DNA of 32,000 nucleotides from Candidatus Saccharimonadota bacterium. Its GTDB lineage: Bacteria > Patescibacteriota > Saccharimonadia > Saccharimonadales > Saccharimonadaceae. Under the pieces are notes generated by a model. It ran no database searches, was not told the DNA's origin, and worked only from the letters and a program-made list of their open reading frames with translations. Shown in pieces: positions 1-30,061 of this stretch (within the stretch, counting starts at the first letter, position 1; each line of letters opens with the position of its first letter). The stretch lies in contig CP060232.1 of NCBI GenBank assembly GCA_023898645.1, forward strand, positions 30,001-62,000, written 5' to 3'. Position numbers and translations under genes: made by a program.

Positions 1-857
1 TCATTAATGACGGTAGTACCGATGATACGGCGAAGCTAGCAAAAAAGGCTGGCGCTAAGGTGTACGGAGATAGTCATTCCAAGGGGCTGGCTTTTCGTTT
101 CCGTGAAGCGGTCAGTATTGTGCTGGAGCAAGGTTTTGATGCTATGGTAAACATCGACGGCGACCTACAGTTCGCACCCGAGGATATACCCATGATGTTG
201 GCGCCGATTATAGCGGATGAAGCGGACTTTGTGGCGGCAGACAGGTTTACTGACCCAAAGACAGGGAAGCGAATCAAACCCAAGAATATGCCATTTGTGA
301 AATACCACGGCAACAAGGTTGGTGCCTGGGTGGTGGGCAAGCTAAGCGAAGAAAAATTTAGAGACGTAACTTGTGGTTTTCGTGCCTACGATCAAAAAGC
401 GCTGTATGCACTCAATATCAACGGCACACACACATATACGCAAGAGTCATTTCAGTTACTAGCCGCCCGACGTATGCGTATAAGGTCTATGCCGGTGAAG
501 GTTAAATATTTTAAGGATCGTAAGTCGCGCGTTGTAACGAGCATACCTAAATATATGGCCATTAGCTTGCTGAATATATTGCGAGCATTTCGTGATTTTG
601 CTCCGCTACGATTCTTTTTACTTATTGGCACGGTGCCGTTTGTTCTTGGCGTGATATGTCTCGTTTTTCTTGGTGTGTATTGGCTACGCGCACAACAACT
701 TTCACCATATAAATCAGTTGGTTTTGCAGGGCTTTACCTTGTGACACTGGGAGTATTCTTTTGGGCGCTTGGACTTGTGGCAGACATGCAAGTTCGCGTA
801 CTTAACAATCAAGAGAAGACCTATGAAGCTTTGCGTCGGCTGGCGAATCGTAAGTAA
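1..857 (+). CDS. Glycosyltransferase family 2, polyprenyl-phosphate-sugar synthase-like (DPM1/GtrB/ArnC-like); 5' end lies outside the window
   Basis: The frame of the tracked ORF (60-857) is open back to nt 3 (INDGSTDDTAKLAKKAGAKV...), which is the GT2 nucleotide-sugar-binding 'DDGS.D.T' region. It has an NIDGDLQF DxD-type motif and two C-terminal hydrophobic helices (FFLLIGTVPFVLGVICLVFLGVYW; GFAGLYLVTLGVFFWALGLVADM). It is clearly paralogous to the CDS at 8511-9452. Confidence 0.8.
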   Translation, partial: INDGSTDDTAKLAKKAGAKVYGDSHSKGLAFRFREAVSIVLEQGFDAMVNIDGDLQFAPEDIPMMLAPIIADEADFVAADRFTDPKTGKRIKPKNMPFVKYHGNKVGAWVVGKLSEEKFRDVTCGFRAYDQKALYALNINGTHTYTQESFQLLAARRMRIRSMPVKVKYFKDRKSRVVTSIPKYMAISLLNILRAFRDFAPLRFFLLIGTVPFVLGVICLVFLGVYWLRAQQLSPYKSVGFAGLYLVTLGVFFWALGLVADMQVRVLNNQEKTYEALRRLANRK

Positions 858-898: not shown

Positions 899-2386
899 AT
901 GCGTTTATTTTTATTGAAATCATATAGTTACGTTATGGCGAAATTAAACAGTCGATACTTTATGTTTGCTGTCCTTGCTTTGTTTGTGATTCAAGCACTT
1001 TGGATAGCTCTTAGTTTTCGTTTTTCAATGCTGTACGATGAAGCGTTTCATGTAGACGCTATAAAGTTATATAGCCATCAGATCTCACCGTATATTACAG
1101 ACCAGGCAACTTATTACGATAAATACGGTAGCCTAAGCCACGGCTGGGCTACATTGTTTCATTACGCGATGAGTTTTCCGTATCGCTTAATTTCTGTTTT
1201 TACGAACGATTTGGTAGTACGGGTTATTTCGCTACGCATTATAGACATTGCTATGGCAGCGACGGGAGTTTTCTTGCTTAGTGTGCTGTTTAGGAAGATG
1301 AAAATCAGACAGATATATATAAATATTACTCTTTTGATATATGTTCTCATTCCAATTACCCCATTTGTCGCTGCGACCATAAGCTATGACAATATGCTCT
1401 TGCCACTTACTGCTCTCTATTTCATCATGGGTATTGATCTACTAAAGAAAAAGAAAGTAGACGCGACCGATTACCTGAGGTTGATAATAATTGGATGTAT
1501 AGCGTCGCTTGTAAAGTTCACCTTTTTGCCGATATTTGCCGCAAGCGTACTGTTTATAGCTGTATTTATGTATAAGAAGCATTCTAAAGCTTTCTTTGTT
1601 GAATTTATAAAATCACTAAAGAAAAAATCAAAGAAAAGTATATATGTCTTAGTCTCACTTACTATAATCATTGTTGGGTGGTTTTCGTCGATATACTTAT
1701 ATAATCTTGCTGTTTATCACGCTGTAAACCCAGAGTGCTCAAGATTGATGAGTGAGAAAAGATGTGAAAGCAGTGGACTCGTGCAACGTAAAGAACAGGC
1801 GCTTGCCATAAGGAATGAGCTAAAGCAGACGGCAATGAACGCCGATCAATATATACAGTACTGGGTAAGTCATATGATCAACTGGTCGGTAACGACTGGG
1901 GCGCGCCCAAGTGATGGCGGAACCGTGGTAGCACAGCCAATAAAGTCTATATATAAGTTGATTTATATAGCTAGTTTTGTAGGCTTTGCTATACTACTTT
2001 ATTCATGGAGGTCTCTACACAAAGACGAAGGCTGGTATTTTCTTGTAACCATTACAGCGTCGCTGACGTTGGCGGAATTTTTGCAAAATTATCTTTTGTA
2101 TCAAAAACTGCTCTACCCTTTTTCTATACAGCCAAGGTATTTCCTCAGTGTCGTTCCGATAGTTATCGTCATGTGCATGATGGCGTGTGCTTTCGTGTTG
2201 AGGAAGGTAAAGCCGGAATATAAACTATTGGTGGTTGCTGTGTTCTTCATGCTTATGACTCAAGGGGGTGGGCTGACGACTCATATACTTTTAAGTCAAG
2301 ATACGTGGTATTGGGATAACTCTACGGTGAGAGATGTAAATGACACGGCAAAAAAGATTCTTCACCCACTAGTAATTGGATCGTGA
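899..2386 (+). CDS. Polytopic membrane protein, GT-C-fold glycosyltransferase-like (ArnT/PMT/GtrC-like)
   Basis: 495-aa ORF with roughly 10 or more hydrophobic segments. It has an acidic 'YDEAFH' motif just after TM1, where GT-C enzymes carry their DE/DD motif, and a large soluble loop (aa ~270-350). It lies directly downstream of a GT2 polyprenyl-P-sugar synthase-like gene. ATG 899 is preceded by TGcTACAAT (877-885). An alternative start at ATG 935 is preceded by TATAGT (923-928). Confidence 0.55.
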   Translation: MRLFLLKSYSYVMAKLNSRYFMFAVLALFVIQALWIALSFRFSMLYDEAFHVDAIKLYSHQISPYITDQATYYDKYGSLSHGWATLFHYAMSFPYRLISVFTNDLVVRVISLRIIDIAMAATGVFLLSVLFRKMKIRQIYINITLLIYVLIPITPFVAATISYDNMLLPLTALYFIMGIDLLKKKKVDATDYLRLIIIGCIASLVKFTFLPIFAASVLFIAVFMYKKHSKAFFVEFIKSLKKKSKKSIYVLVSLTIIIVGWFSSIYLYNLAVYHAVNPECSRLMSEKRCESSGLVQRKEQALAIRNELKQTAMNADQYIQYWVSHMINWSVTTGARPSDGGTVVAQPIKSIYKLIYIASFVGFAILLYSWRSLHKDEGWYFLVTITASLTLAEFLQNYLLYQKLLYPFSIQPRYFLSVVPIVIVMCMMACAFVLRKVKPEYKLLVVAVFFMLMTQGGGLTTHILLSQDTWYWDNSTVRDVNDTAKKILHPLVIGS

Positions 2387-2390
2387 AATT

Positions 2391-3539
2391 ATGATGAATA
2401 TAACTCTACTGGGTAGCTTGCCGCCGCACAAAGGAATAAGCAAGTACATGTCGGCATTATTAGACGGGTTGGACGGAGTTGATAATTTGCATGTGGATGT
2501 ATTAGCGTTTAAAAATATATATCCAGACATACTGTATCCAGGCGGCACGAAAGATCCTAGTATGCGACTGGCAAAGGACACAAAAAATATCAAAATACGG
2601 AATTTTTTAAATTGGTATAATCCAATCGGTTGGATTTATGCAGGATTTACAGTTCGTGGCGACATATTGCATGTGCAGTGGTGGACTTATGTGCTCGCGC
2701 CTGTATACGTGACAATCATACTAATAGCTAAATATATACGAAGAAAGAAAATCGTTGTTACGGTGCACAACGTAAAGCCGCATGAAGGTGGCTTGATTAA
2801 AACTTTAGCTAATAAGATGATTGTAGCGCTAGGTGACCGCTTTATCGTGCATACGGACGATGGAAAAAAGGATTTTTGCGATACGTACCATAAGCCTGTA
2901 AATATAGTTGACGTGGTACCACACGGAATATTAATGCCTGATGCTGATATAAAAAATATAACCAAGTCTGAAGCGCGTAAACAGCTTAATGTGCCACAAG
3001 ACAAAAAAGTCATATTGTTCTTTGGGATAATTCGTGAATATAAGGGTCTAGATATATTGATAAAAGCCATGTCTGAAATCATAAAAAAGGAACCAAAGGC
3101 ACACTTGATAATAGCTGGAAAGCCGTGGGAGGGTTGGGAAAAATACGAAGAAATAATCAACTATCACGACCTAAATAAATCAGTTCAACTAAATTTGGAG
3201 TTTATACCTGAGGGCGATATTGAGAAGTATTTTCGAGCAGCAGACCTCGTGGTTTTGCCATATAAGCATTTCGATGCACAGAGTGGCGCGGGTACGCTAG
3301 CACTTCCGTTTGGCAAAGCGATGATAGTCACAAATACGGGTGGATTGCCGGAATTGGTGGTGAATAAGAGCGTCATTGCGAGGGTGGACGATGTGCAAGA
3401 CCTTGCGACGAAGATAGTGTTGGTGCTTGCTGACGAAAAGCTCAAAAGCACCCTAGAGTCTGACGCGCGTAGACTTGCTAATGAGCTGTCTTGGGACGCA
3501 GTGGCAATACGGACACAAAAGACATATAATAGTCTCTAG
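2391..3539 (+). CDS. Glycosyltransferase family 4 (GT-B fold, Glycos_transf_1-like)
   Basis: The C-terminal half shows the typical GT4 pattern (KKVILFFGIIREYKGLDILIKAM... IAGKP... ADLVVLPY... SGAGTLALPFGKAMIVTNTGGLPELV). The tracked ORF begins at TTG 2376, overlapping the previous stop. ATG 2391/2394 (MMNITLLGS) is the more likely start. Confidence 0.85.
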   Translation: MMNITLLGSLPPHKGISKYMSALLDGLDGVDNLHVDVLAFKNIYPDILYPGGTKDPSMRLAKDTKNIKIRNFLNWYNPIGWIYAGFTVRGDILHVQWWTYVLAPVYVTIILIAKYIRRKKIVVTVHNVKPHEGGLIKTLANKMIVALGDRFIVHTDDGKKDFCDTYHKPVNIVDVVPHGILMPDADIKNITKSEARKQLNVPQDKKVILFFGIIREYKGLDILIKAMSEIIKKEPKAHLIIAGKPWEGWEKYEEIINYHDLNKSVQLNLEFIPEGDIEKYFRAADLVVLPYKHFDAQSGAGTLALPFGKAMIVTNTGGLPELVVNKSVIARVDDVQDLATKIVLVLADEKLKSTLESDARRLANELSWDAVAIRTQKTYNSL

Positions 3540-3544
3540 TTTGT

Positions 3545-4450
3545 ATGAATAAGGGTAAGAGTGAGCACAGCGATGAAGTGTGGCCAAATTTTTTGATAAT
3601 TGGTGAGCCACGAAGCGGTACTACGTCTTTGCACGACTGGCTTAGCATGCACCCAGATTTATACATGTCATCCGTAAAAGAGCCGCACTACTTTTCGTCG
3701 ATAAACTTTCCGAAAATAGAAAAGCAAATATTGCATACAACTCGCAGCAAAAGAAAATATTTGAGTTATTTCAAAGATGGCGCAAATAAGCCTTTTCGGG
3801 GTGAGTCGAGCACCTATTATTTGTCTGACCCTGAAGCACCAAGAAAAATAAAGAAAGCCATACCTGACGTAAAGCTGATTGCAGTGTTGCGCGAACCTGT
3901 TGATCGCGCGTTTTCGCACTATCTACTTTATAATCGACGAGGTACTCAGCAGCAATCGTTTACAGACGTTGTGAGTGAAAATCTGAAAGGTAAAACCAAC
4001 CCCGCGTATGACCTAGTAGAGCTAGGTAGGTATTATAAGCATCTGAAGAATTACGGCAAATATTTTGACAATGACCAGATACTAGTCGTGCTGTTTGATG
4101 ATTTGAAAAAAGAACCGCGTGTCGTTATAAAGCGAGTGCTTGATTTTTTGGGTGCCGATACGAGGGTGGTAGACAGTCTTAATATCAAGACAGCAAGCAA
4201 CGCTTATGCGCAACCACGCAACAAACTGTCGAACGCACTATTGTCTAATAGAATATTGACGAATATTGGCTTAAGAATAGTACCTCGACCTGCGTTGAAA
4301 AAGATCCGCACGAAATTATTGATGAGCGGGAAAAAGCCAGAAATTGATAAACGCGCCGAAACCACACTAATAAAGGTATATAGAAAGCAAATCGACCAAC
4401 TTGAAGTTTTATTAAATCAGGATTGTTCATCACTACGGAGGGTTAATTAA
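3545..4450 (+). CDS. PAPS-dependent sulfotransferase
   Basis: N-terminal 5'-phosphosulfate-binding loop 'IIGEPRSGTTSL' (PKxGTT-like). 3'-phosphate-binding region 'LIAVLREPVDRAFSHY' (R-x7-S). Size of about 300 aa. It is adjacent to the PAPS synthesis genes. Confidence 0.8.
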   Translation: MNKGKSEHSDEVWPNFLIIGEPRSGTTSLHDWLSMHPDLYMSSVKEPHYFSSINFPKIEKQILHTTRSKRKYLSYFKDGANKPFRGESSTYYLSDPEAPRKIKKAIPDVKLIAVLREPVDRAFSHYLLYNRRGTQQQSFTDVVSENLKGKTNPAYDLVELGRYYKHLKNYGKYFDNDQILVVLFDDLKKEPRVVIKRVLDFLGADTRVVDSLNIKTASNAYAQPRNKLSNALLSNRILTNIGLRIVPRPALKKIRTKLLMSGKKPEIDKRAETTLIKVYRKQIDQLEVLLNQDCSSLRRVN

Positions 4451-4483
4451 GCCCCTAAAATTTATTTAAGCAGTCGTTGTACG

Positions 4484-5452
4484 CTATGATTTGCTACTTA
4501 GTTTAAAAATAGATGTGTGTAATAGCTTGGGTGTATAGTATGAAGACAATACTCCGGCTAGGATGAATGTTAATAGTCGCAGTAGTATCGCAACGACGAG
4601 TGTAGGGGCTATGGGCACGCCAGCGATTTGTGCCGCTAGAACCATAAGGCCCTCTCGCACGCCAAGACTACCAGGAGTTATAGCGAAAAGGACCGACCAG
4701 GTAGTGAGTGATGATATGAAAAATACATTGACAACATTCAAATGAGATCCCAAGGATGCGTACAGGAAGAAGTACGTAGCCCCAAGCGCTGTGATGTTAA
4801 CAAGCATCCATAATACGGTACGAGGGAGGAGCTTAGGGTGACTTCGAACGGTTTCATAACCGTCAAGTAATTCACGAAGCCTTTCAAGTAAGCGATTATT
4901 CTTTGCACCCTCTTTTTCTATGAGATGCCTCAGGCGAGATACGGGCAAATTGAGGAGTGACAAAAAGAAAATCACGACGACACCAACGGTTATAAGGGCA
5001 CTATCATTATAGGTAGACAGCTTCTCGAGCGCAAAGAATGTCACGATGGCAAAGACCCCAGATATCATAAATTGCAGTAAATTACTGATGATAAAACTGG
5101 AGGAAAACTTTGTGTATGAGACACCATAGGTTTTCTTTAGGTAGGTTGCCCTGACGGTGGCACTTATGTAACTGGGAGACAATTGGTTAGTAAATCGTGT
5201 GATTGCTGCAAGTCCAAAAGCTTCTTGTCGCTTGAGTTTTATACCGTGTGGCTCGGTGGCGAGATCAATGACGACACCTGCGCCATATATGTTGATTGTC
5301 AAGAATAGTAATGCTGGGACAAGATAAAGTGGGTCTGTGATGGCGATTTTTGCGAAGTCGTCATGATTTGCAACGACATACCAAATAGCTATACAGACGA
5401 AGAGCAAGACAACAGTCGTACTGACAAGGGATTTAAAGAGTTCTTTTTTCAT
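4484..5452 (-). CDS. UPF0104 / LPG_synthase_TM-like (MprF flippase-domain-like) integral membrane protein
   Basis: 322 aa with about 8 TM segments. The central charged loop 'RLRHLIEKEGAKNNRLLERLRELLDGYETVRSHPKLL' is followed by 'LWMLVNITALGATYFFLYASLG' and '...ITPGSLGVREG', which is characteristic of the family. Confidence 0.65.
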   Translation of the reverse strand: MKKELFKSLVSTTVVLLFVCIAIWYVVANHDDFAKIAITDPLYLVPALLFLTINIYGAGVVIDLATEPHGIKLKRQEAFGLAAITRFTNQLSPSYISATVRATYLKKTYGVSYTKFSSSFIISNLLQFMISGVFAIVTFFALEKLSTYNDSALITVGVVVIFFLSLLNLPVSRLRHLIEKEGAKNNRLLERLRELLDGYETVRSHPKLLPRTVLWMLVNITALGATYFFLYASLGSHLNVVNVFFISSLTTWSVLFAITPGSLGVREGLMVLAAQIAGVPIAPTLVVAILLRLLTFILAGVLSSYYTPKLLHTSIFKLSSKS

Positions 5453-5465
5453 AGAGCTGTTTACT

Positions 5466-5503
5466 ATTTTACCACGGAAGCACCCCGATAAGCATGGTAT
5501 TAT
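5466..5503. promoter_or_regulatory. Divergent promoter pair between the UPF0104 gene and sat/cysC
   Basis: Minus strand: TGGTAAAAT (5466-5474), 13 nt from ATG 5452. Plus strand: TGGTATTAT (5495-5503), followed by a ~30-nt leader with a GAGGAA SD. Confidence 0.5.
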
Positions 5504-5536
5504 GGGGTAAGTAAAATTGCGAGGAAATGGGGAAAT

Positions 5537-7252
5537 ATGCGAGAGACTGACGTACCGCGTGGAGGGAAACTAGTTGATTTGTTGGTTGGTAGCAAACGAG
5601 CTGCAGACGTAAAAAAGCAAAGCGCACAATACAAAAGTTGGAACCTGACACCTAGGCAGATTTGCGATACAGAATTGTTGATAAACGGCGGCTTTTCGCC
5701 GCTTAAAGGCTTCATGAATAAAGCAGATTACGAAAATGTTTGCAAAAACATGCGGCTTGCTGATGGTACGCTCTGGCCAATGCCAATCACGCTCGACGTA
5801 GACGAGATGTTTGCAAACAGTCTGAAAAAGGGCAAGAAGATTGCACTTCGCGACCAAGAAGGCGTGATACTAGCCATACTGACCGTTGGTGATGTGTGGA
5901 AGCCGAATAAATCCAAAGAAGCCGAGCAAGTATATGGCAAGGACGACAAAGCTCACCCTGCTGTCGCTTATTTGCACGATACTGCGGGTGATTACTATGT
6001 GGGCGGCACACTCGAAGGCTTGGAATTGCCAAGCTATTATGATTTCAACGAGCTGCGCTATACACCACAGGAGCTACGTAATCATTTTAAAAAGATGGGT
6101 TGGACGAAGATTGTGGCGTTTCAAACGCGCAACCCTATGCATCGTAACCACGCTGAAGCTGTGTTGCGTGCCGCTAAGCAGTCTGAGGCTGCGGTGCTGA
6201 TACACCCGGTTGTGGGCATGACGAAGCCGGGCGACGTAGACCACTATACGCGTGTACGAGTGTATAAGTCAGTGATTAATCGTTTTCCTGCGTCGACAGC
6301 TATGATTTCGCTACTCCCGCTGGCTATGCGTATGGGCGGCCCACGCGAGGCCGTGTGGCATGCGATTATTCGTAAAAACTATGGCGTGACGCATTTCATT
6401 GTGGGTCGCGACCATGCTGGTCCGGGCAAAGATTCTGACGGTAACGATTTTTATGACCCATTAGATGCCATGGCGCTGGCTCGTAAGTACGCCTCAGAGA
6501 TTGGAATTGAAATCATGGAGGCTGGTTTCCTATCTTACGTAAAGGAACTCGACAAATACATGGAGTCAAAGGAAGTGCCAGAGGGTATGGAAGTACTGAA
6601 TATATCTGGTACCGAACTACGCGCACGACTAGCAGAGGGTCGTGAACTACCCGAATGGTTTACATACCCAGAAGTGGCGACAGAGCTGCGCCGTACATAC
6701 AAGCCACGACACCAACAAGGATTTACAGTGTTTTTCACTGGCTTGTCGGGATCGGGCAAGTCGACAATTGCAAACGCGCTGATGGTTAAGATGATGGAGC
6801 AAGGTGGGCGAACCGTGACGCTGCTTGACGGTGACGTGGTGCGCAAAAATCTTTCTAGCGAACTAGGCTTTAGCAAAGAGCACCGTGATTTGAACGTAAC
6901 GCGTATCGGCTATGTGGCATCGGAGATATCCAAACATGGTGGCGTAGCAATATGTGCGCCGATTGCACCGTATGACGATGTGCGCAAAAAGGTGCGCGGT
7001 ATAGTAAAAGACAATGGCGGCATGTTTGTGCTAGTGCATGTAGCTACGCCACTCGAAGTGTGTGAAGATCGTGATCGCAAGGGGCTATATGCTGCGGCTC
7101 GTGCGGGTAAAATCAAGGAATTTACTGGTATATCTGACCCATATGAAGAGCCGGCAGATGCGGACGTGACACTACATACAACCGAAAATACACCAGAAGA
7201 GCTGGCAAATCAGATTTTGCTACACCTGGAAAAAGAAGGCTTGTTGCAATAA
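5537..7252 (+). CDS. sat/cysC: Bifunctional sulfate adenylyltransferase (ATP sulfurylase) / adenylylsulfate (APS) kinase
   Basis: ATP sulfurylase motifs 'FQTRNPMHRNHAE' and 'HFIVGRDHAGPG', with a PUA-like N-terminal domain. The C-terminal domain carries an intact APS-kinase P-loop 'FFTGLSGSGKSTIANAL' and 'LDGDVVRKNL... FSKEHRDLNVTRIG'. A GAGGAA SD lies at 5521-5526. Confidence 0.93.
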   Translation: MRETDVPRGGKLVDLLVGSKRAADVKKQSAQYKSWNLTPRQICDTELLINGGFSPLKGFMNKADYENVCKNMRLADGTLWPMPITLDVDEMFANSLKKGKKIALRDQEGVILAILTVGDVWKPNKSKEAEQVYGKDDKAHPAVAYLHDTAGDYYVGGTLEGLELPSYYDFNELRYTPQELRNHFKKMGWTKIVAFQTRNPMHRNHAEAVLRAAKQSEAAVLIHPVVGMTKPGDVDHYTRVRVYKSVINRFPASTAMISLLPLAMRMGGPREAVWHAIIRKNYGVTHFIVGRDHAGPGKDSDGNDFYDPLDAMALARKYASEIGIEIMEAGFLSYVKELDKYMESKEVPEGMEVLNISGTELRARLAEGRELPEWFTYPEVATELRRTYKPRHQQGFTVFFTGLSGSGKSTIANALMVKMMEQGGRTVTLLDGDVVRKNLSSELGFSKEHRDLNVTRIGYVASEISKHGGVAICAPIAPYDDVRKKVRGIVKDNGGMFVLVHVATPLEVCEDRDRKGLYAAARAGKIKEFTGISDPYEEPADADVTLHTTENTPEELANQILLHLEKEGLLQ

Positions 7253-7254
7253 AC

Positions 7255-8028
7255 ATGGCTGATTTGTTGGACGAGGTTATTGATTTGGCTAAGGTTGCTG
7301 GCGATGCAATCATGGAAGTATATGAGTCGGATGATTTTGATGTTGAGATCAAAGACGACAGCTCGCCCCTGACACGCGCCGACAAAGCCGCGCACGATGT
7401 CATAGTAAAAGGCCTAGCGAAAATTAGCGACTACGATATTGTTTCGGAGGAGGGCGAGGGCCGTAATCCTGCAACAGAGGCATACTGGCTAGTTGACCCG
7501 CTCGACGGCACCAAAGAGTTTGTGAAGCGCAACGGTGAGTTTACGGTAAATATAGCCTTGATAAAAGACAAAAGGCCGGTGCTCGGTGTGGTGTATGCAC
7601 CTGTGCTCGATGTTTATTATTGTGGAGACGTGCTGGCAAATCGAGCGATCAAAATCGAAAAAGGCGAACAAAAAGAGATCCATGCGACCCCTGCCGCAGG
7701 TTTGCCGACTATTGTCGTGAGTCGTTCACACAAAGATGAGCAAACACAAAAGTTGCTTGATTCAATTGGCGAATGTAACGAAGTGGCTATGGGGTCTTCG
7801 CTCAAGCTTTGTTTGGTTGCCGAGGGAGCTGCTTCGCTATATCCTCGCCTTGGTCCAACGAGTTTGTGGGATACTGCTGCAGCTGATGCTGTAGTTGTGG
7901 CTGCAGGTGGAGCGGTAAAAGATCTTGCGGGTGAAATGCTACGCTACGATCCGCGAGAAGACATATTGAATCCGTATTTTGTGGTTGAGTCTGCGGATAA
8001 TAGAATTGACTGGAAGGTTTGCTTGTAG
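7255..8028 (+). CDS. cysQ: 3'(2'),5'-bisphosphate nucleotidase (PAP phosphatase), inositol monophosphatase family
   Basis: Motifs 'SEE', 'WLVDPLDGTKEF' and 'WDTAAADAVVVAAGG'. Size of 257 aa. It starts 2 nt after the sat/cysC stop. Confidence 0.88.
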   Translation: MADLLDEVIDLAKVAGDAIMEVYESDDFDVEIKDDSSPLTRADKAAHDVIVKGLAKISDYDIVSEEGEGRNPATEAYWLVDPLDGTKEFVKRNGEFTVNIALIKDKRPVLGVVYAPVLDVYYCGDVLANRAIKIEKGEQKEIHATPAAGLPTIVVSRSHKDEQTQKLLDSIGECNEVAMGSSLKLCLVAEGAASLYPRLGPTSLWDTAAADAVVVAAGGAVKDLAGEMLRYDPREDILNPYFVVESADNRIDWKVCL

Positions 8029-8030
8029 TG

Positions 8031-8480
8031 ATGCATTCAAAAAAGCGCCACCTTGCGAAAGCAGTGTCGTGGAGGGTTATTGGTTCAATCGACACGATGA
8101 TTTTGGGTTGGGTATTTTCGGGAAATCCGCTCATTGGTCTAAAGATCGGTCTGACGGAAACAGTCACAAAAATTGGCCTGTATTACCTGCATGAACGAGC
8201 TTGGTTTAAGTTTAACCGAGATCGACTGCACTGGTTGCGTCTACGTTCAAGTCGACGACGCCATTTGGCAAAGACGGTGACGTGGCGCGTTGTCGGTACT
8301 ATAGATACGATGATATTGGCGTGGATTATATCGGGCGATCCGCTTGTGGGGCTTAAGGTTGGCGGTACAGAAATCGTCACCAAAATGACACTGTACTATT
8401 TTCATGAAGAACTGTGGCATCGCAGCAAGTTTGGCCTACTGCCGAAGAAACCAGACGAAATCGAAGAAATTTTTAACTAG
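8031..8480 (+). CDS. Tandem DUF2061-like small membrane protein (two repeats of a 2-TM unit)
   Basis: There are two roughly 55-aa repeats: 'KKRHLAKAVSWRVIGSIDTMILGWVFSGNPLIGLKIGLTETVTKIGLYYLHERAW' and 'RRRHLAKTVTWRVVGTIDTMILAWIISGDPLVGLKVGGTEIVTKMTLYYFHEELW'. The 'K..tWR..g..dT....y..tG...a..ig..e..tK...YY.HE..W' pattern matches my memory of DUF2061. ATG 8031 overlaps the cysQ stop context (TAGTGATG). The tracked ORF starts at TTG 8019. Confidence 0.6.
   Translation: MHSKKRHLAKAVSWRVIGSIDTMILGWVFSGNPLIGLKIGLTETVTKIGLYYLHERAWFKFNRDRLHWLRLRSSRRRHLAKTVTWRVVGTIDTMILAWIISGDPLVGLKVGGTEIVTKMTLYYFHEELWHRSKFGLLPKKPDEIEEIFN
8040..8417 (+). repeat. Internal tandem duplication of the DUF2061-like coding unit (8040-8204 and 8253-8417, offset 213 nt)
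   Basis: Direct comparison of the two translated halves shows a majority of positions identical, in the same order and without gaps. Confidence 0.8.
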
Positions 8481-8510: not shown

Positions 8511-9452
8511 CTATTTTCTGTACTGTGTTTCTTTCATGCGCTCTAGTTGGTCTTCGAGCAAGGTTCGATTAATGCGCAGTAAGTCAGCGATAACTACAAG
8601 TGCGAACGATAGCAATGAGCCGACAAGTGTAGCGCTACCAAAAATGAGTGACTGGAGGTGGCCATCGCCGTCACCCTGGAGGGCGAAAATGATAAAACGT
8701 ACAAACGGAACAGCTCCTAAAACAAGCAGTACAATACCAAGTGTCATAAACACTACATGAGGTCGGTACATGATGTAGCTACGGATGATTGCTTTGCCAG
8801 ACTGAGCCATGTGGTGCCAGATGTTTTTAAACAGGCGCGATTCACGGGTTTTTTCGTTGGTTTCGATTTTGACACTGGCGATCTTGAGTCGTTTGTTGCC
8901 GGCCTGGATGATTGTTTCCATACAGTAGCTGAATTTCGTGACGATGTTGAGCTTGATCAAAGAGTTACGGGAGTAAGCGCGGAAGCCACTGGCGGCGTCG
9001 GGTAGGTTGGTACCTGCTGCGTAGTTGACGACCTCACTACCCACGCGTTGCATCAGCTTTTTGAAAGGCGAAAAATGAGCAATCTTGGCCGTTTGGCGAT
9101 CACCTATAACGATGTCTGCCTCGCCAGCAATAATCGGCTGCACCAGGTCGGCTATACGAGTTTGTGGATATTGGTTGTCGCCATCGGTGTTTACTACGAT
9201 GTCGGCGCCGTGCTTGAGTGCGTAGTCTATACCGTCGCGGAAGCTACGAGCCAAACCCATGTTGCGCGTATGGTGTACGAAGTGTTTGACGCCGTGTGCT
9301 TTTGCAACATCGACGGTTTTGTCGCTTGAGCCGTCGTCTACGATCAGAATTTCAATAGAATCAACATTGTCGATTTTGGTTGGGATGTCTTTGAGAACTA
9401 GCGGAAGGGTGGCCTCTTCGTTGAGGCAAGGGATTTGTACGAATACTTTCAT
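8511..9452 (-). CDS. Glycosyltransferase family 2, polyprenyl-phosphate-sugar synthase-like (DPM1/GtrB-like)
   Basis: 'MKVFVQIPCLNEEATLPLVL', 'ILIVDDGSSDKTVDVAK', 'NTDGDNQY' and 'GFRAYSR', plus two C-terminal TM helices. It is a paralogue of the partial CDS at 1-857. Confidence 0.88.
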   Translation of the reverse strand: MKVFVQIPCLNEEATLPLVLKDIPTKIDNVDSIEILIVDDGSSDKTVDVAKAHGVKHFVHHTRNMGLARSFRDGIDYALKHGADIVVNTDGDNQYPQTRIADLVQPIIAGEADIVIGDRQTAKIAHFSPFKKLMQRVGSEVVNYAAGTNLPDAASGFRAYSRNSLIKLNIVTKFSYCMETIIQAGNKRLKIASVKIETNEKTRESRLFKNIWHHMAQSGKAIIRSYIMYRPHVVFMTLGIVLLVLGAVPFVRFIIFALQGDGDGHLQSLIFGSATLVGSLLSFALVVIADLLRINRTLLEDQLERMKETQYRK

Positions 9453-9470: not shown

Positions 9471-10826
9471 TTACGATCGGCCGACGCCGATATAAGTAAG
9501 ACCGGCAGCTTTGACATCTGCAGACGAAAAGCGATTCATGGCATCGACGAACACGGTGGCGCCATTGACGAACTCTGCTACGGGCGTATTGACGAACTGT
9601 GGCCAATCGGTAGCCACGATGACGGCGTCTACGTTTGCGACAGCATTTTCGGCTGAGTCGACGAGTGAAATTGAGCGTACGAGTTCTTCTTCGGCCTCTT
9701 CGTTTGCCTCGGGATCGTATGCAGTTACGATAGCTTGCTGAGCGGCGAGGGTGTTTGCTAGGGCGACGCCAGGTGATTTGCGCACATCGCTCGTACCGGA
9801 TTTAAACGCGAGTCCGAGCACGGTTACTTTTTTGCCAGCTAAGCTGCCACCAAGAACGTCTTTGAGCTTTTCGACGATATAGCCGGGCATGGAAGCGTTT
9901 GTTGACTGGACGGCGCTCATGATGTCGAGGTCGATACCGTGTGAAAGACCACTAGAAATTAAGCCACTGACATCTTTGGGGAAGCAGCCTCCTCCGTAAC
10001 CGCGACCAGCGTTTAGAAAGGCTCGGCCAATGCGCTTGTCGGCACCGACGGCGTCCATAACTTCGTTGATGTCGGCATCGGCTGCGTCTGCGAGTTTGGC
10101 TATGGAATTTGCGAATGAAATCTTGAGTGCTAGAAAGGCATTTGCTGTAACTTTGATTAACTCGGCGCTGCTGAGAGTCGTAGTGATATAAGCACCTTGC
10201 TGACTGTTTGCGGTAACACCAGCTACAGTGGCAATGTTGTCGCGATGTGATTCAAGCGCGTGGTAGATGTCGAGTACTTTTTCGGTAGCTTCGGAATTGT
10301 CTCCGCCTACGACCACTCTGTCAAAATAGAGGGTGTCTTCTACGGCCGTACCTTCGCGTAGGAATTCAGGATTTGACACGTACGCTATGTCGGCACCGGC
10401 CTTGGCGAATTGCTCTATGACTCGTTGGCCAGTACCTACGGGAACGGTACTTTTTTGCACGTAGACAGTACCTAGTTTGGCATGCTTGGCGGTTTCTTCT
10501 GCCGCTGCAAATACATACGTAAGGTTTGAGCTACCGTCGGGGTTGTCTGGTGTGCCGACGCAAGAAAACACGATATCACTTGTGGGTACGCATTCGGCGT
10601 AGTTGTCTGTAGGTAGTAGTGAACCGTTGTCGATGGCTAGTTTGATTAATTTGTCGATTCCTTGCTCAAAAAAGAACGAACGGCCAGATTTTATGACCTC
10701 GAGTCGTTTTGGGTTTGGTTCTATGAGGTGTACTTTGTAGCCGGCGTGCGCAAATAGGACTGCGGAGGTTAAGCCGACGTAACCTGCTCCTAGAATGGTT
10801 ATTTCATCTTGTTTTTCCATGATCAA
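9471..10826 (-). CDS. ugd: UDP-glucose 6-dehydrogenase family (nucleotide-sugar dehydrogenase)
   Basis: N-terminal Rossmann motif 'ILGAGYVGLTSAV', catalytic-Cys motif 'GGGCFPKDV' and a C-terminal UDP-binding domain 'VTVLGLAFKSGTSDVRKSP'. Exact sugar specificity cannot be determined from the sequence alone. Confidence 0.85.
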   Translation of the reverse strand: MIMEKQDEITILGAGYVGLTSAVLFAHAGYKVHLIEPNPKRLEVIKSGRSFFFEQGIDKLIKLAIDNGSLLPTDNYAECVPTSDIVFSCVGTPDNPDGSSNLTYVFAAAEETAKHAKLGTVYVQKSTVPVGTGQRVIEQFAKAGADIAYVSNPEFLREGTAVEDTLYFDRVVVGGDNSEATEKVLDIYHALESHRDNIATVAGVTANSQQGAYITTTLSSAELIKVTANAFLALKISFANSIAKLADAADADINEVMDAVGADKRIGRAFLNAGRGYGGGCFPKDVSGLISSGLSHGIDLDIMSAVQSTNASMPGYIVEKLKDVLGGSLAGKKVTVLGLAFKSGTSDVRKSPGVALANTLAAQQAIVTAYDPEANEEAEEELVRSISLVDSAENAVANVDAVIVATDWPQFVNTPVAEFVNGATVFVDAMNRFSSADVKAAGLTYIGVGRS

Positions 10827-10827
10827 T

Positions 10828-11682
10828 TTAAAGAGACATCAGGTAATTACCGTAGCCAGATTTTTTTAGAGGCTCAGAAAGTCCGACAAGTTGCTCTTTG
10901 GCAATGTAATTTTCATGATAGGCAGTTTCTTCGGGACTGCCGATGATTTGACCGGTGCGTTTTTGAAGCACCTTCACGTAGTCGGTCGCGTCGGTCATGC
11001 TGTCGATGGTACCCGTGTCTAGCCAGACGTCACCGTCGTTTAGTGTGGTGACTTGGAGCTTGCCACGCTTCAGGTATTCGTCATTGATACTGGTGATTTC
11101 TAGTTCGCCACGCTCGCTTGGTTGGATGTTTTTGGCGATTTCTATGACGTCGTTGTCGTAGAAATAGAGGCCCACAACGGCGTAGTCAGACTTCGGCTGA
11201 GTTGGTTTTTCCTCGATTGAAATAGCCTTGTTGTCTTCGTCGAATTCGACCACGCCATAGCGTTCAGGGTCGGAGACTTGGTAGGCAAACACAACACCGC
11301 CGTCAGGATCGGTGCACTTTTTTAGAGACTCACTTAGTCGATGACCATGGAATATATTGTCGCCGAGTACCATGGCAACTTTGTCGGTACCAATGAATTC
11401 TTCGCCGATGATAAACGCTTGGGCAAGGCCGTCCGGCGAGGGTTGGATTGCGTACTGGAGGTTGATGCCCCACTGTGAACCGTCGCCGAGCAGGTTTTGA
11501 AACGATGCTTGGTCTTCGGGCGTCGTGATGATCAAAATGTCGCGAATACCGGCAGACATGAGCGTGGTGAGTGGATAATATACCATCGGTTTGTCATAAA
11601 TAGGCATTAATTGCTTGCTGATACCTTTGGTGATAGGCCAAAGTCGTGTACCTGAACCACCTGCTAAAATAATTCCTCGCAT
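10828..11682 (-). CDS. rmlA: Glucose-1-phosphate thymidylyltransferase
   Basis: '[38 protein letters not shown]' is a near-canonical RmlA N-terminus. A GGAGGA SD (11691-11696, minus strand) lies 8 nt upstream. Confidence 0.93.
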
Positions 11683-11702
11683 TTTGTAATTCCTCCGTAG
11701 AC

Positions 11703-13109
11703 CTACTGTTTTTCTAGATATTCCCTAAGCGCTTGTTTCCACTCGCGTGGCGTGAAGCCTGCGGCCTTTATTTTACCAAGGTCGAGCGTACTTTGTAAGG
11801 GGCGAGGAGCGACACCTTCTTTGCCGGCGTAATATTCCTCGGTTGTGACTGGAGTGATGTCGTTGCCCGATTTGCCGACAAATTCATATACCTCTTTGGC
11901 GATGTCGGCCCAGCTGGCTGGCTCGCCTTCGTTTGACAAGTTATATGTGCCATAAGAGGCGTTGCTAGTAAGCAGATGAGAGATTGCTGCAGCGAGGTCT
12001 TGCGTGAAGGTGAGGCGACCGATTTGGTCGCTAACGACGCTTGGTTTTACGTCACGTTCAGCCAAAGACTTCATGGTGAGTACGAAGTTTTTACCGTCGC
12101 CGATGACCCAACTGGTACGTAGTAGATAGTGTCGTGGCGTAGTGCTGACGATTAGATCACCCGCCGCTTTGCTTTGCCCATAAACACTAAGCGGTGAAAG
12201 CGCTTCGTTTTCGGTGTGAGGGTCTTGTGTGCCGTCGAATACATAGTCGCTAGATACGTGGACGAGCGTAATGTCGTTTTCGTTGCAGATTTTAACTAAG
12301 TTTGTGAGCGCGGTGGCATTTGCGAGCCATGAGTCTTTGCGGCCGTCTGGAGTTTCGGCGAGGTCAACGGCTGTATAAGCAGCAGCGTTGAGAATAGTCC
12401 CGTAATCACGCCAGCGTCGACCTGTGATAATTGCAGGGTCACTCATGTCAAAGGTGTCGCGGTCAACTTGCTCGGCGTCAGGAAATACTGCAGAAAGCGC
12501 TCGGCCGAGTTGACCGTAGGCGCCGACAATCAGGGTCTTTTTTGGTCTGATAGGTGTGGCATCTTTGAGTGACGGGTGGTTTTTGTCTTTTTCGGATACC
12601 TCGCATTCACTGAGCGGAATTGGCCAGTCGATACCTAGTGTCTCGTCAAACATGCTGACATTTGAATATTGTGCATCTGCCGACCAATGGTCGTTTACTA
12701 GGTAGCTATAGACGGTTTCGTCTTCGAGAGTTTGATAGCCATTAGCAACGCCACGGGGTACGAAGACGGCTTTGGTTGGGTCTACTTCGGTTGTAAAGAC
12801 TTTGCCGTAGGTTTCGCTGCCCTCGCGAATGTCTACCCAGAAGCCAAAGATTTTGCCTGACCCGAGTGAAATAAATTTATCCCACGGTTCGGCATGGATG
12901 CCACGAGCAACACCGCGCTTGTCGTTGAACGAGAAATTGTTTTGTACTGGTTTTAGGTCGGGCAGGCCAAGTTTGAGCATCTTTTCGCGTTGCCAATTTT
13001 CTTTGAACCAGCCACGGTTGTCGCCGTGGAGTATGAGGTCGTAGACGACGAGCCCTTTGATGGGCGTTTCTGTTACTTTTAGTTCTTTTTTAAATTCGAG
13101 TTCTGACAT
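11703..13109 (-). CDS. rmlC-rmlD: Fused dTDP-4-dehydrorhamnose 3,5-epimerase / dTDP-4-dehydrorhamnose reductase
   Basis: The N-terminal ~180 aa form a cupin epimerase ('[21 protein letters not shown]', '[11 protein letters not shown]', '[12 protein letters not shown]'). The C-terminal ~285 aa form an SDR reductase ('[13 protein letters not shown]', '[12 protein letters not shown]', 'YGQSKAAGD'). It is a single uninterrupted 468-aa ORF. Confidence 0.88.
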
Positions 13110-13115
13110 GAATTC

Positions 13116-13151: not shown

Positions 13152-13158
13152 CGTAGGT

Positions 13159-13923: not shown

Positions 13924-15517
<1,594 letters not shown>

Positions 15518-30046: not shown

Positions 30047-30061
30047 AATATATGTATCGCT

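What the first reader, a model, noticed from the sequence alone, without database searches (positions are those of the whole stretch)
3545..8480. Self-contained PAPS cycle (Sat-CysC fusion + CysQ) wired to a sulfotransferase inside a glycan locus: candidate sulfated envelope glycoconjugate pathway
**Seen in sequence.** One polypeptide combines ATP sulfurylase (QTRNPMHRNH, GRDHAGPG) with an APS kinase domain that keeps an intact P-loop (GLSGSGKST). It is followed 2 nt later by a CysQ-type PAP phosphatase (WLVDPLDGT). About 1 kb upstream lies a sulfotransferase with 5'-PSB (PRSGTT) and 3'-PB (R..7..S) motifs. No cysH, cysJI, sir or cysK-like gene is in the window. Every neighbour is a glycosyltransferase, nucleotide-sugar enzyme or flippase-like protein.

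**Established knowledge.** PAPS is the universal sulfuryl donor, and PAP must be removed by CysQ. Bacterial precedents for PAPS used for sulfation rather than assimilation are NodPQ/NodH and LpsS in rhizobia and Stf0/sulfolipid-1 in mycobacteria.

**Inference.** This organism makes PAPS mainly to sulfate a surface glycan or glycolipid. If the genome is a reduced CPR-type genome, such a dedicated sulfation pathway would be an unusual investment and, as far as I know, is not characterised.
Basis: partly seen in the sequence, partly recalled or inferred. Interest (0 to 1): 0.75.

Follow-up and report, generated by a model that had tools for sequence, protein, structure and literature searches.

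The report
PAPS-making sulfation module in CPR glycan locus
A tiny-genome (CPR/Patescibacteria) bacterium carries a complete set of genes to make the activated sulfate donor PAPS, recycle its by-product and use it with a carbohydrate-type sulfotransferase inside a cell-surface sugar locus. It therefore probably decorates its envelope with sulfate, a known kind of pathway in a lineage where it has not been described.

Summary
Curated HMMs identify a soluble PAPS-type sulfotransferase at 3545-4450. At 5537-7252 they identify a bifunctional Sat/CysC with all catalytic motifs and an intact P-loop. CysQ follows 2 nt later, at 7255-8028. The window matches a closed 1.13-Mb NCBI MAG labelled Candidatus Nomurabacteria, so the CPR guess is right.

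The module recurs in related CPR genomes. In one Saccharimonadales genome, Sat/CysC, the sulfotransferase and a flippase-like gene form one abutting operon. This argues that PAPS is made for sulfation rather than for sulfur assimilation.

- The sulfotransferase always sits beside an MprF-type flippase-like gene (4484-5452).
- The 495-aa unknown protein (899-2386) has a GT-C glycosyltransferase fold.
- A DUF2061 gene (8031-8480) is a conserved partner of cysQ across phyla.
- The sulfotransferase cassette is a low-GC variable unit, replaced by a pyruvyltransferase cassette in a close relative.

PAPS genes next to sulfotransferases in glycan loci are already known (NodPQ/NodH, xss, Actinoplanes wps-1). 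I rate this a new member of a known kind, of moderate interest. The acceptor molecule and the genome-wide absence of cysH/sir/cysK remain untested.

The parts
1..857 (+). 3' part of a 321-aa GT2 glycosyltransferase. The gene starts before the window. It is highly conserved (92%) in related CPR loci.
   Evidence: Glycos_transf_2. The full 321-aa gene is seen in L001/L006. 92% identity in L009 and L012.
899..2386 (+). Polytopic membrane GT-C-fold glycosyltransferase, distantly related to DUF2142. It is the candidate extracytoplasmic transferase using a polyprenyl-phosphate-linked donor.
   Evidence: No Pfam hit for the window protein itself. Several homologues carry PF09913. The AF2 model has pLDDT 94, and Foldseek matches PglB/STT3, ArnT, Pmt4, ALG9/12, AftA and Emb with probability 1.0 and TM about 0.45. 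D47 and E48 are invariant. About 10 TM segments.
2376..3539 (+). GT4 glycosyltransferase directly upstream of the sulfotransferase. Other gene callers start it at 2391.
   Evidence: Glycos_transf_1 E 2e-23. A GT4 gene lies directly beside the sulfotransferase in the window, L009, L010, L012/L095 and L094, but these GT4s are not all orthologous.
3545..4450 (+). Soluble PAPS-dependent, carbohydrate-type sulfotransferase.
   Evidence: Sulfotransfer_1 and Sulfotransfer_3. PDB matches: 3RNL at 1e-34 and heparan-sulfate 3-OST/NDST at 1e-16 to 1e-13. Invariant residues are K45, E46, P47, H48, R116, R121 and S124. No TM segment.
4484..5452 (-). Stand-alone MprF-type flippase-like membrane protein (LPG_synthase_TM), convergent with the sulfotransferase.
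   Evidence: PF03706 E 1.6e-29. TIGR00374 scores 70 bits against a cutoff of 43. About 8 TM segments. It lies beside the orthologous sulfotransferase in every locus of the 45%-or-more identity clade.
5537..7252 (+). Bifunctional ATP sulfurylase / APS kinase (Sat-CysC), the PAPS synthase.
   Evidence: NF004040 scores 911 bits against a cutoff of 669. PDB matches are 1I2D and 2GKS.
7255..8028 (+). CysQ 3'(2'),5'-bisphosphate nucleotidase, which removes PAP.
   Evidence: TIGR01331 scores 266 bits against a cutoff of 229. There is a 2-nt gap after Sat-CysC.
8031..8480 (+). DUF2061 protein with two 55-aa repeats that form four long helices. It is an uncharacterised, conserved partner of cysQ. An alternative TTG start lies at 8019.
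   Evidence: PF09834 E 2e-42. It abuts cysQ in 7 of 7 contexts, including Flavobacterium and Vicingus. AF2 pLDDT is 83, with no PDB fold match.
8511..9452 (-). GT2 polyprenyl-phosphate-sugar-synthase-like enzyme with two C-terminal TM helices (GtrB/ArnC/AglJ-like).
   Evidence: Glycos_transf_2 E 3e-23. NCBIfam similarity to AglJ, PpgS, dolichyl-phosphate hexose transferase and ArnC, all below their cutoffs. TM segments at 233-251 and 270-288. In L010 its orthologue (63%) overlaps the flippase-like gene.
9471..14961 (-). Nucleotide-sugar supply genes: UDP-glucose/GDP-mannose dehydrogenase, RmlA, an RmlC-RmlD fusion and RmlB. A plus-strand Exo_endo_phos gene sits at 13057-13923.
   Evidence: The block is syntenic in L093 and L010.
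28610..31410 (.). Initiating phosphoglycosyl transferase (Bac_transf, 28610-30088, minus strand) and a Wzy_C polymerase/ligase-like protein (30052-31410, plus strand). Together they mark a lipid-linked glycan assembly line.

Best explanation
This is a self-sufficient sulfation module in the envelope-glycan locus of a CPR bacterium.

**Proposed steps.**
1. Sat-CysC converts sulfate and 2 ATP into PAPS.
2. The soluble, heparan-sulfate-type sulfotransferase moves the sulfuryl group onto a sugar hydroxyl or amine of a lipid-linked saccharide at the cytoplasmic face of the membrane.
3. CysQ hydrolyses the inhibitory by-product PAP to AMP.
4. The sulfated, lipid-linked product is moved across the membrane by the adjacent MprF-type flippase-like protein.
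5. It is then built into a surface glycoconjugate.

**Most specific version (inference, about 35%).** The logic follows the Arn and Gtr pathways. A GT2 enzyme makes polyprenyl-phosphate-sugar, the sulfotransferase modifies it, the flippase-like protein flips it, and the GT-C enzyme (899-2386) transfers the sulfo-sugar to a wall polymer or protein.

**Alternative acceptors.**
- The polyprenyl-PP-linked repeat unit made by Bac_transf plus the GT4s, as proposed for synechan (about 30%).
- A glycosyl-diacylglycerol lipid (about 15%).

**Shown.** Family assignments, motif integrity, gene order and conservation of the module.

**Inferred.** Enzymatic activity, the acceptor, the flipping step, the surface location, and the absence of sulfate reduction elsewhere in the genome.
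For: - **Family assignments.** HMM and equivalog scores are above curated cutoffs for Sat/CysC and CysQ, and above Pfam cutoffs for the sulfotransferase and the flippase-like protein.
- **Catalytic residues.** Motifs are intact and invariant across 19 homologues.
- **Topology.** Sulfotransferase, Sat/CysC and CysQ are soluble. The flippase-like protein, GT-C and GT2 are membrane proteins.
- **Module conservation.**
  - L012/L095: GT4 > ST > <ST2 <FLIP > SatCysC > CysQ > DUF2061.
  - L011: <CysQ, then SatCysC > ST > FLIP, abutting or overlapping.
  - L013: ST > FLIP.
  - L010: ST > <FLIP <GT2.
  - L094, a high-GC organism: cysN, cysD, cysQ, TauE, cysC, ST2, FLIP, ST inside a teichoic-acid-type locus.
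- **Clade-specific pairing.** A flippase-like gene lies next to the sulfotransferase in 3 of 3 CPR loci and 0 of 77 other loci in the GTDB scan.
- **Flippase partners.** Elsewhere in these loci the flippase-like genes pair or overlap with GT2 genes.
- **GT-C fold.** The 495-aa protein matches PglB, ArnT, PMT and ALG structures.
- **Genetic precedent.** In Actinoplanes, deleting a Sat/APS-kinase gene next to an EPS cluster with two sulfotransferases disrupts sporangium formation (PMC13390465).
- **Model for the cytoplasmic step.** In the Wzx/Wzy model the repeat unit is built and modified on the lipid carrier at the cytoplasmic face (PMC8205485).
Against: - No biochemical evidence exists for any sulfated product.
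- The acceptor cannot be read from the sequence.
- The whole 1.13-Mb genome could not be screened for cysH, sir, cysK or cysE.
- In the close relative L093 the PAPS operon (80% identical) is kept, but no sulfotransferase lies within the 16 kb read. A pyruvyltransferase cassette sits there instead. The PAPS operon is therefore not strictly tied to this sulfotransferase.
- L010 and L013 have ST-FLIP without nearby PAPS genes.
- No recognisable sulfate transporter is in the window.
- The flippase activity of stand-alone LPG_synthase_TM proteins is itself only predicted.
Confidence: 0.7

Rival explanations
1. Sat-CysC and CysQ serve ordinary assimilatory sulfate reduction (PAPS to sulfite to sulfide to cysteine). 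On this view they lie in the glycan locus by accident, and the sulfotransferase merely taps a housekeeping PAPS pool.
For: - The PAPS operon belongs to the conserved, higher-GC core of the locus (0.46-0.49). The sulfotransferase cassette is a lower-GC (0.39-0.43) variable unit.
- The relative L093 keeps the PAPS operon with no sulfotransferase in 16 kb.
- The whole genome was not screened.
Against: - No PAPS reductase, sulfite reductase, CysK or CysE family is in the 32-kb window or in the 6 kb upstream.
- In GCA_035546935, Sat/CysC, sulfotransferase and flippase-like gene form one abutting operon.
- The same arrangement is seen in L012/L095.
- From established knowledge, CPR genomes of about 1 Mb generally lack amino-acid biosynthesis. 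This was not tested here.
Confidence: 0.12
2. The sulfotransferase acts on something other than an envelope glycoconjugate. Candidates are a secreted small molecule, a peptide or protein tyrosine (RaxST/TPST-like), or a soluble nucleotide sugar.
For: - The acceptor is unknown.
- The 5'-PSB carries Arg (PRSGTT), as I recall for TPST-type enzymes (own knowledge).
- NCBIfam has no specific model for this protein.
Against: - The closest solved structures after 3RNL are carbohydrate sulfotransferases, and the KEPH(Y/F)F catalytic motif is shared with them. No entry annotated as Stf0 or as a protein-tyrosine sulfotransferase is listed at E <= 0.01.
- In all loci of the 45%-or-more clade the gene sits directly beside a flippase-like gene, and in most of them also beside a GT4.
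Confidence: 0.1
3. The cassette is a recently acquired, possibly non-functional horizontal insert with no role in this organism.
For: - The GT-C/GT4/ST/FLIP block has lower GC than its flanks.
- The sulfotransferase is 50% identical to one in a 69%-GC organism.
- DUF2061 is about 60% identical to Flavobacteriia proteins.
- An IS200-like gene is in the window.
Against: - All ORFs are intact, with tight 2- to 5-nt spacing.
- The locus is identical in at least six metagenome assemblies.
- Orthologues at 45-76% identity keep every catalytic residue.
Confidence: 0.05

Closest known systems
NodPQ + NodH (Sinorhizobium Nod-factor sulfation); RaxPQ + RaxST (Xanthomonas)
   Different: - Those systems use the CysD/CysN-CysC type of enzyme, not a Sat-CysC fusion.
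- Their acceptors are a lipo-chitooligosaccharide or a peptide tyrosine.
- They have no linked flippase-like, GT-C or DUF2061 gene.
- Sequence relationship of the sulfotransferases was not tested here.
Synechocystis xss cluster (synechan) and Actinoplanes missouriensis wps-1 cluster with AMIS_7390
   Same: Sulfotransferases are embedded in a lipid-linked polysaccharide assembly locus. One Actinoplanes enzyme carries a heparan-sulfate-sulfotransferase domain. In Actinoplanes an adjacent Sat/APS-kinase gene is required for the phenotype (PMC8205485, PMC13390465).
   Different: - Those clusters are Wzx/Wzy systems in large genomes.
- Here no Wzx was found in the window. The sulfotransferase instead pairs with an MprF-type flippase-like protein.
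- CysQ and DUF2061 are part of the operon.
- The host is a 1.1-Mb CPR genome.
Aquifex aeolicus bifunctional Sat/APS kinase (PDB 2GKS) and Penicillium chrysogenum ATP sulfurylase (1I2D)
   Same: They share the three-domain architecture PUA-like, ATP sulfurylase, APS-kinase-like. Scores are E 4e-181 and 3e-204.
   Different: The Penicillium C-terminal domain reads GYMNSGKD at the P-loop position and, from my own knowledge, is allosteric only. The window protein has the canonical GLSGSGKST and passes the apsK equivalog-domain cutoff.
Arn pathway (ArnC-ArnD-ArnE/F-ArnT) and three-component Gtr / CsbB-GtcA-YfhO glycosylation systems
   Same: The logic I propose is shared: GT2 polyprenyl-phosphate-sugar synthase, then cytoplasmic modification of the lipid-linked sugar, then a flippase, then a GT-C transferase. 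The GT2 shows weak ArnC similarity and the GT-C matches ArnT by fold.
   Different: - The modification would be sulfation, not deformylation.
- The flippase candidate belongs to the LPG_synthase_TM family, not GtrA or ArnE/F.
- The resemblance is in logic only and is inferred.
3RNL, an uncharacterised bacterial sulfotransferase structure
   Same: It is the closest solved relative (E 1e-34, full length). From my own knowledge the structure comes from Alicyclobacillus. Homologues in Alicyclobacillus genomes also sit next to sat and cysC.
   Different: Its function is unknown. No flippase-like gene lies next to the Alicyclobacillus homologues.

Membership tests
Bifunctional sulfate adenylyltransferase/adenylylsulfate kinase (NCBIfam NF004040) | Whole-protein score above the curated equivalog cutoff | tested here: met
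   911.4 bits against a cutoff of 669.
Bifunctional sulfate adenylyltransferase/adenylylsulfate kinase (NCBIfam NF004040) | ATP-sulfurylase active-site motifs QxRNPxHxxH and GRDHAG | tested here: met
   QTRNPMHRNH and GRDHAGPG are in the translation and align to 1I2D.
Bifunctional sulfate adenylyltransferase/adenylylsulfate kinase (NCBIfam NF004040) | Catalytically competent APS-kinase domain (canonical Walker A, DGD motif) | tested here: met
   GLSGSGKST and LLDGDVVR are present. TIGR00455 scores 188.5 bits against a cutoff of 138.7. Enzyme activity itself cannot be tested with these tools.
CysQ 3'(2'),5'-bisphosphate nucleotidase | Score above the TIGR01331 equivalog cutoff, with metal-binding DPxDGT and WDxAA motifs | tested here: met
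   266.1 bits against a cutoff of 228.8. The E. coli-type model NF008182 is below its cutoff (277 against 379).
PAPS-dependent sulfotransferases (Pfam Sulfotransfer_1 / Sulfotransfer_3) | 5'-PSB loop, 3'-PB motif (RxxxxRxxS) and a catalytic base | tested here: met
   - PRSGTT has Arg in place of Lys; more distant homologues have AKAGTT.
- R116, R121 and S124 are invariant.
- K45-E46-P47-H48 aligns with the EPHFF motif of 3-OST.

Stf0 / TPST-type sulfotransferases | Detectable sequence similarity to the Stf0 family or to solved Stf0/TPST chains | tested here: not met
   The only Pfam hits at E <= 0.01 are Sulfotransfer_1 and Sulfotransfer_3. No entry annotated as Stf0 or as a protein-tyrosine sulfotransferase is among the 39 PDB matches at E <= 0.01.
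NodH / LpsS rhizobial sulfotransferases | Phylogenetic grouping with NodH or LpsS | not tested
   No reference sequences were available through the tools.
MprF (lysyl-phosphatidylglycerol synthase/flippase) | LPG_synthase_TM membrane domain | tested here: met
   PF03706 scores 103.8 bits against a cutoff of 33.4. TIGR00374 scores 70.3 against 43.2.
MprF (lysyl-phosphatidylglycerol synthase/flippase) | C-terminal aminoacyl-phosphatidylglycerol synthase domain | tested here: not met
   The protein is only 322 aa, all membrane domain, with no second Pfam domain. It is therefore a stand-alone flippase-like protein, not MprF.
GT-C glycosyltransferases | GT-C membrane fold with an acidic motif in the first external loop | tested here: met
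   Foldseek probability is 1.0 to PglB, STT3, ArnT, Pmt4, ALG9/12 and AftA. D47 and E48 are invariant in 40 homologues. The protein has no Pfam hit of its own.
Wzx/Wzy-dependent polysaccharide pathway | Initiating phosphoglycosyl transferase, Wzy polymerase and Wzx flippase | tested here: inconclusive
   Bac_transf (E 1.9e-59) and Wzy_C (35.3 bits against a cutoff of 31.7) are present. No Wzx/Polysacc_synt/MurJ family and no ABC exporter were found in the window.

The most novel reading that the evidence does not exclude
Saccharimonadia-type CPR bacteria and at least one high-GC, probably actinobacterial, organism share a 'sulfate-then-flip' module. In it, a heparan-sulfate-type sulfotransferase sulfates a polyprenyl-phosphate-linked sugar. 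A stand-alone MprF-type protein flips the product. A lineage-specific GT-C enzyme then attaches the sulfo-sugar to the cell surface. DUF2061 would be a so far unrecognised component of bacterial PAPS metabolism, for example in sulfate entry or PAP handling. Because cultivated Saccharibacteria are, to my knowledge, epibionts of Actinomycetota, the module may have moved between host and epibiont and may shape their surface contact.
Probability: 0.25. Interest if true: 0.7.

Novelty: new member of a known kind. Interest (0 to 1): 0.5.

Why it matters
- **Sulfated glycans are rarely reported in bacteria.** Two recent papers state they are known only from cyanobacteria (PMC8205485, PMC13390465). 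From my own knowledge, rhizobial and marine examples also exist.
- **It would be a real investment.** A 1.1-Mb epibiont-type genome spending two ATP per sulfate plus five or more genes on sulfation suggests that a strongly anionic surface matters to its lifestyle. Possible roles are adhesion to hosts, cation binding, and phage or immune evasion.
- **Two testable leads for gene function.**
  - Stand-alone LPG_synthase_TM proteins may flip modified lipid-linked sugars.
  - DUF2061 may be a partner of CysQ and PAPS metabolism. This can be tested in genetically tractable Flavobacteria.

Tried and rejected
- **Whole-genome check for cysH/sir/cysK.** Not possible. The single genome-collection scan showed the window's genome is not among the species representatives; the best sulfotransferase hit was 49%. 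The look-up of encoding contigs returned only metagenome contigs of 45 kb or less.
- **Rfam scan of the window.** No riboswitch or other RNA family.
- **Promoter and terminator scan of 1-10000.** Promoter-like sites were not above shuffled expectation, and terminator-like sites were only about 1.7 sd above it. No site could be tied to the operon.
- **DUF2061 fold search against the PDB.** No match with E < 7. Hydropathy is only moderate, so even its membrane location is uncertain.
- **Literature searches.** Searches for CPR, Patescibacteria or Saccharibacteria with sulfotransferase, APS kinase, sulfated or Sat gave nothing relevant. DUF2061 and LPG_synthase_TM have no functional literature in the library.
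- **Apparent loss of the GT2 gene in L001/L006.** This was a gene-calling artefact; tblastn finds the gene at 100% identity.
- **Stf0 or TPST membership.** Rejected on sequence grounds.
- **A pseudo-kinase, fungal-type allosteric C-terminal domain.** Rejected, because the P-loop is canonical and the apsK model cutoff is passed.

Full report
**1. Observation.**

- **Sulfotransferase, 3545-4450 (+).** A 301-aa protein matching Sulfotransfer_1 (E 5.8e-22) and Sulfotransfer_3 (E 3.5e-18).
- **Sat/CysC, 5537-7252 (+).** A 571-aa protein with PUA_2, ATP-sulfurylase (4e-81) and APS_kinase (4.6e-58) domains.
  - It scores 911 bits against the curated equivalog for bifunctional Sat/CysC (cutoff 669).
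  - It contains QTRNPMHRNH, GRDHAGPG, the canonical Walker A GLSGSGKST, and LLDGDVVR.
- **CysQ, 7255-8028 (+).** It starts 2 nt after the Sat/CysC stop. TIGR01331 scores 266 bits against a cutoff of 229. WLVDPLDGT and WDTAA are present.
- **No sulfur-assimilation genes.** None of the scanned ORFs matches a PAPS/APS reductase, sulfite reductase, CysK or CysE family.
- **No sulfate transporter.** None matches a recognised sulfate transporter family either.
- **Not an assembly artefact.** The identical locus occurs in at least six independent metagenome assemblies.

**2. Source organism.**

The proteins are exact matches to NCBI entries USN96602-USN96617 (locus tags H6797_...). These belong to a MAG labelled Candidatus Nomurabacteria bacterium, on a 1,134,346-bp contig.

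All named relatives of the lineage-specific genes are Saccharibacteria, Saccharimonadales or Patescibacteria. The organism may thus be closer to Saccharimonadia than its NCBI label suggests.

**3.

- **Flippase-like gene.** The 1-kb gap between the sulfotransferase and Sat/CysC is a minus-strand gene (4484-5452). It encodes a 322-aa protein with about 8 TM segments of the LPG_synthase_TM family, the MprF flippase-type domain.
- **DUF2061.** Downstream of cysQ, 2 nt away, lies a DUF2061 gene (8031-8480).
- **GT-C enzyme.** Upstream of the sulfotransferase is a GT4, and before it a 495-aa polytopic protein with no Pfam hit.
  - With an alignment of 40 homologues its AlphaFold model reaches pLDDT 94.
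  - Foldseek matches PglB/STT3, ArnT, Pmt4, ALG9/12, AftA and EmbA/B at probability 1.0.
  - An invariant Asp47-Glu48 pair completes the picture of a GT-C glycosyltransferase.
- **GT2 enzyme.** The gene at 8511-9452 has two C-terminal TM helices and weak similarity to AglJ, PpgS, dolichyl-phosphate hexose transferase and ArnC. This is the polyprenyl-phosphate-sugar-synthase type.
- **Rest of the locus.** It supplies dTDP-rhamnose, UDP-sugar dehydrogenase, GlmS, an initiating Bac_transf and a Wzy_C protein.
- **Exporter.** No Wzx or ABC exporter was found.
- **Topology.** The sulfotransferase, Sat/CysC and CysQ have no TM segments.

**4. The sulfotransferase.**

- The closest solved structure is 3RNL, an uncharacterised bacterial sulfotransferase (E 1e-34).
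- Next come heparan-sulfate 3-O-sulfotransferases and NDST (1e-16 to 1e-13).
- No entry annotated as Stf0 or as a protein-tyrosine sulfotransferase appears at E <= 0.01.
- Alignment shows three features: the 5'-PSB loop (PRSGTT, with Arg where distant homologues have Lys), the 3'-PB motif (R116, R121, S124), and the K45-E46-P47-H48 motif matching the EPHFF catalytic Glu/His of 3-OST.
- All of these are invariant among 19 homologues.
- It is therefore an intact, cytoplasmic, carbohydrate-type PAPS sulfotransferase.

**5. Conservation of the module.**

| Locus | Organism or source | Gene order |
|---|---|---|
| L011/L014 | Saccharimonadales GCA_035546935 | <CysQ, then SatCysC (8261-10000) > ST (10001-10888) > flippase-like (10885-11844); one abutting operon |
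| L012, L095 | Saccharibacteria-type | GT-C-like > GT4 > ST > <ST2 <FLIP > SatCysC (89% identical) > CysQ > DUF2061 |
| L009 | ST 76% identical | Repeats the left half; contig ends after FLIP |
| L010 | ST 50% identical | ST > <FLIP <GT2 (63% to the 8511-9452 protein), FLIP overlapping GT2; no PAPS genes nearby |
| L093 | Close relative, 75-80% identity on the right-hand genes | Keeps SatCysC-CysQ-DUF2061; left flank is GT-C > nitroreductase-like > FLIP > pyruvyltransferase; no ST in 16 kb |

In the window, the GT-C/GT4/ST/FLIP block has GC 0.39-0.43, against 0.46-0.51 for the PAPS operon and the rml genes. The sulfotransferase cassette therefore behaves like the variable part of an O-antigen-type locus, while PAPS supply is part of the conserved core.

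An HMM scan of 80 loci from species-representative genomes that carry homologous sulfotransferases gave two results.

- PAPS genes lie within 10 kb in 17 loci. These include Alicyclobacillus, Bacteroidota, Fraserbacteria and Desulfurobacteriaceae.
- A flippase-like neighbour occurs only in the three CPR loci.

Outside CPR the pairing occurs once, in 'Microbacter sp. GSS18' (CP119753).

- Its locus has 69% GC and carries teichoic-acid genes, which points to an actinobacterium despite its Bacteroidales label.
- It carries cysN, cysD, cysQ, an Rrf2 regulator, TauE, cysC, ST2, FLIP and an ST 50% identical to the window's.

**6. Mechanism.**

*Shown:* family membership, intact motifs, topology, and operon-level linkage of PAPS synthesis, PAP removal, sulfotransferase and flippase-like protein.

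*Inferred:*
1. PAPS is made by Sat/CysC.
2. The soluble sulfotransferase modifies a lipid-linked saccharide at the inner face of the membrane.
3. CysQ removes PAP.
4. The flippase-like protein exports the sulfated intermediate.

In these genomes the flippase-like genes otherwise pair or overlap with GT2 polyprenyl-phosphate-sugar-synthase-like genes, and a GT-C enzyme is in the same block. I therefore favour an Arn/Gtr-like route, at about 35%: GT2, then sulfotransferase, then flippase, then GT-C.

The alternatives are:
- sulfation of the polyprenyl-PP-linked repeat unit, as proposed for synechan (PMC8205485), at about 30%;
- sulfation of a glycolipid, at about 15%.

The overall claim, dedicated sulfation of an envelope glycoconjugate, I put at about 0.7.

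**7. Rivals.**

- **Assimilatory use of PAPS.** This cannot be excluded without the full genome, and the L093 case gives it some support. The operon fusions and the absence of any reduction gene in about 38 kb argue against it.
- **A non-glycan acceptor.** Disfavoured by the structural neighbours and the gene context.
- **A dead horizontal insert.** Disfavoured by intact, tightly spaced ORFs and conserved catalytic residues.

**8. Comparison with known systems.**

The Sat/CysC fusion is the known PRK05537 type.
- Its best PDB matches are Penicillium ATP sulfurylase (1I2D) and Aquifex Sat/APS kinase (2GKS).
- Unlike the fungal protein, whose kinase-like domain reads GYMNSGKD, the window protein keeps the catalytic P-loop.

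Dedicated PAPS genes next to sulfotransferases are known from several systems.
- NodPQ/NodH and RaxPQ/RaxST (own knowledge).
- Sulfotransferases in polysaccharide clusters, from Synechocystis xss (PMC8205485).
- Actinoplanes wps-1, where deleting an adjacent Sat/APS-kinase gene disrupts sporangium formation (PMC13390465).

Both papers describe sulfated polysaccharides as essentially unreported outside cyanobacteria. From my own knowledge, rhizobial LPS/K-antigen and several marine O-antigens are sulfated, so the statement is too strong.

No paper in the library mentions sulfotransferases or PAPS use in CPR.

**9. Verdict.**

This is a new member of a known kind, a PAPS-plus-sulfotransferase module in a glycan locus, in a lineage where it has not been described.

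Two features may prove to be real variants: the clade-specific coupling of the sulfotransferase to an MprF-type flippase-like protein, and the cysQ-DUF2061 pair. Interest is 0.5.

Noticed in passing
window 8031-8480; L092 7001-7441; L096 4001-4432; L093 8001-8444; L095 14455-14940; L097 6001-6450: DUF2061 has two 55-aa repeats with invariant R/H/K/D/E residues, predicted to form four long helices with no PDB fold match.
- It directly abuts or overlaps the cysQ (Inositol_P) gene and lies near an APS-kinase gene in all 7 contexts read, in both CPR and Flavobacteriia.
- An example is Flavobacterium dauae: cysQ > DUF2061 > cysC > cysD > cysN.
- The window protein is about 60% identical to the Flavobacteriia proteins.
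- It is an uncharacterised, apparently obligate partner of the PAPS module.
   Followed up: partly
L094 (CP119753.1, 'Microbacter sp. GSS18'), whole locus: The record is classified under Bacteroidales/Porphyromonadaceae. However, the locus has 67-72% GC and carries teichoic-acid genes (Glyphos_transf, an IspD-SDR fusion). It looks like an actinobacterium, possibly a Microbacterium, that has been mislabelled. It holds the closest non-CPR copy of the ST-FLIP-ST2 module, with cysDN, cysQ, cysC and TauE.
   Followed up: partly
L093 2174-5414 versus window 899-5452: In a close relative (75-80% protein identity on the shared genes) the GT-C/GT4/sulfotransferase/flippase cassette is replaced. The replacement is GT-C > nitroreductase-like > flippase-like > polysaccharide pyruvyltransferase. 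This is a swap of one anionic modification (sulfate) for another (pyruvate ketal), while the PAPS operon is retained.
   Followed up: partly
window 899-5452 versus 5537-14961: GC content steps from 0.39-0.43 in the GT-C/GT4/ST/FLIP block to 0.46-0.51 in the PAPS operon and rml genes. This is consistent with a horizontally exchanged variable cassette. Sat/CysC is 89% identical to L012, whereas the sulfotransferase is only 49% identical.
   Followed up: yes
window 11703-13109 (-): RmlC (dTDP-4-dehydrorhamnose 3,5-epimerase) and RmlD (reductase) are fused into one 468-aa protein. The fusion is conserved in L093, L002 and L010.
   Followed up: no
window 24658-25284 (+): An IS200-like Y1 transposase homologue (E 7.5e-10) sits between the surface-protein genes and the second glycan block. 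It is flanked by 0.5-1.2 kb of sequence with only short ORFs without family hits.
   Followed up: no
window 18435-24147 (+): Three consecutive large proteins: 534 aa, 374 aa and a 947-aa protein with a GDSL-like domain.
- The 534-aa and 947-aa proteins have an N-terminal signal/anchor and a C-terminal TM helix and no other family assignment.
- They are probably cell-surface proteins and possible acceptors or partners of the glycan.
   Followed up: no
L006 1-6300 (upstream of the window): Just upstream of the window lies a second set of DUF2142-type membrane protein, GT4, GT2 and flippase-like gene, plus a methyltransferase and a second UDP-sugar dehydrogenase. The organism therefore carries at least two parallel GT2/flippase-like/GT-C sets.
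   Followed up: no
whole window: GC skew is positive in nearly every 2-kb interval regardless of gene strand. The only exception is about 23-25 kb, where it is -0.009.
   Followed up: no
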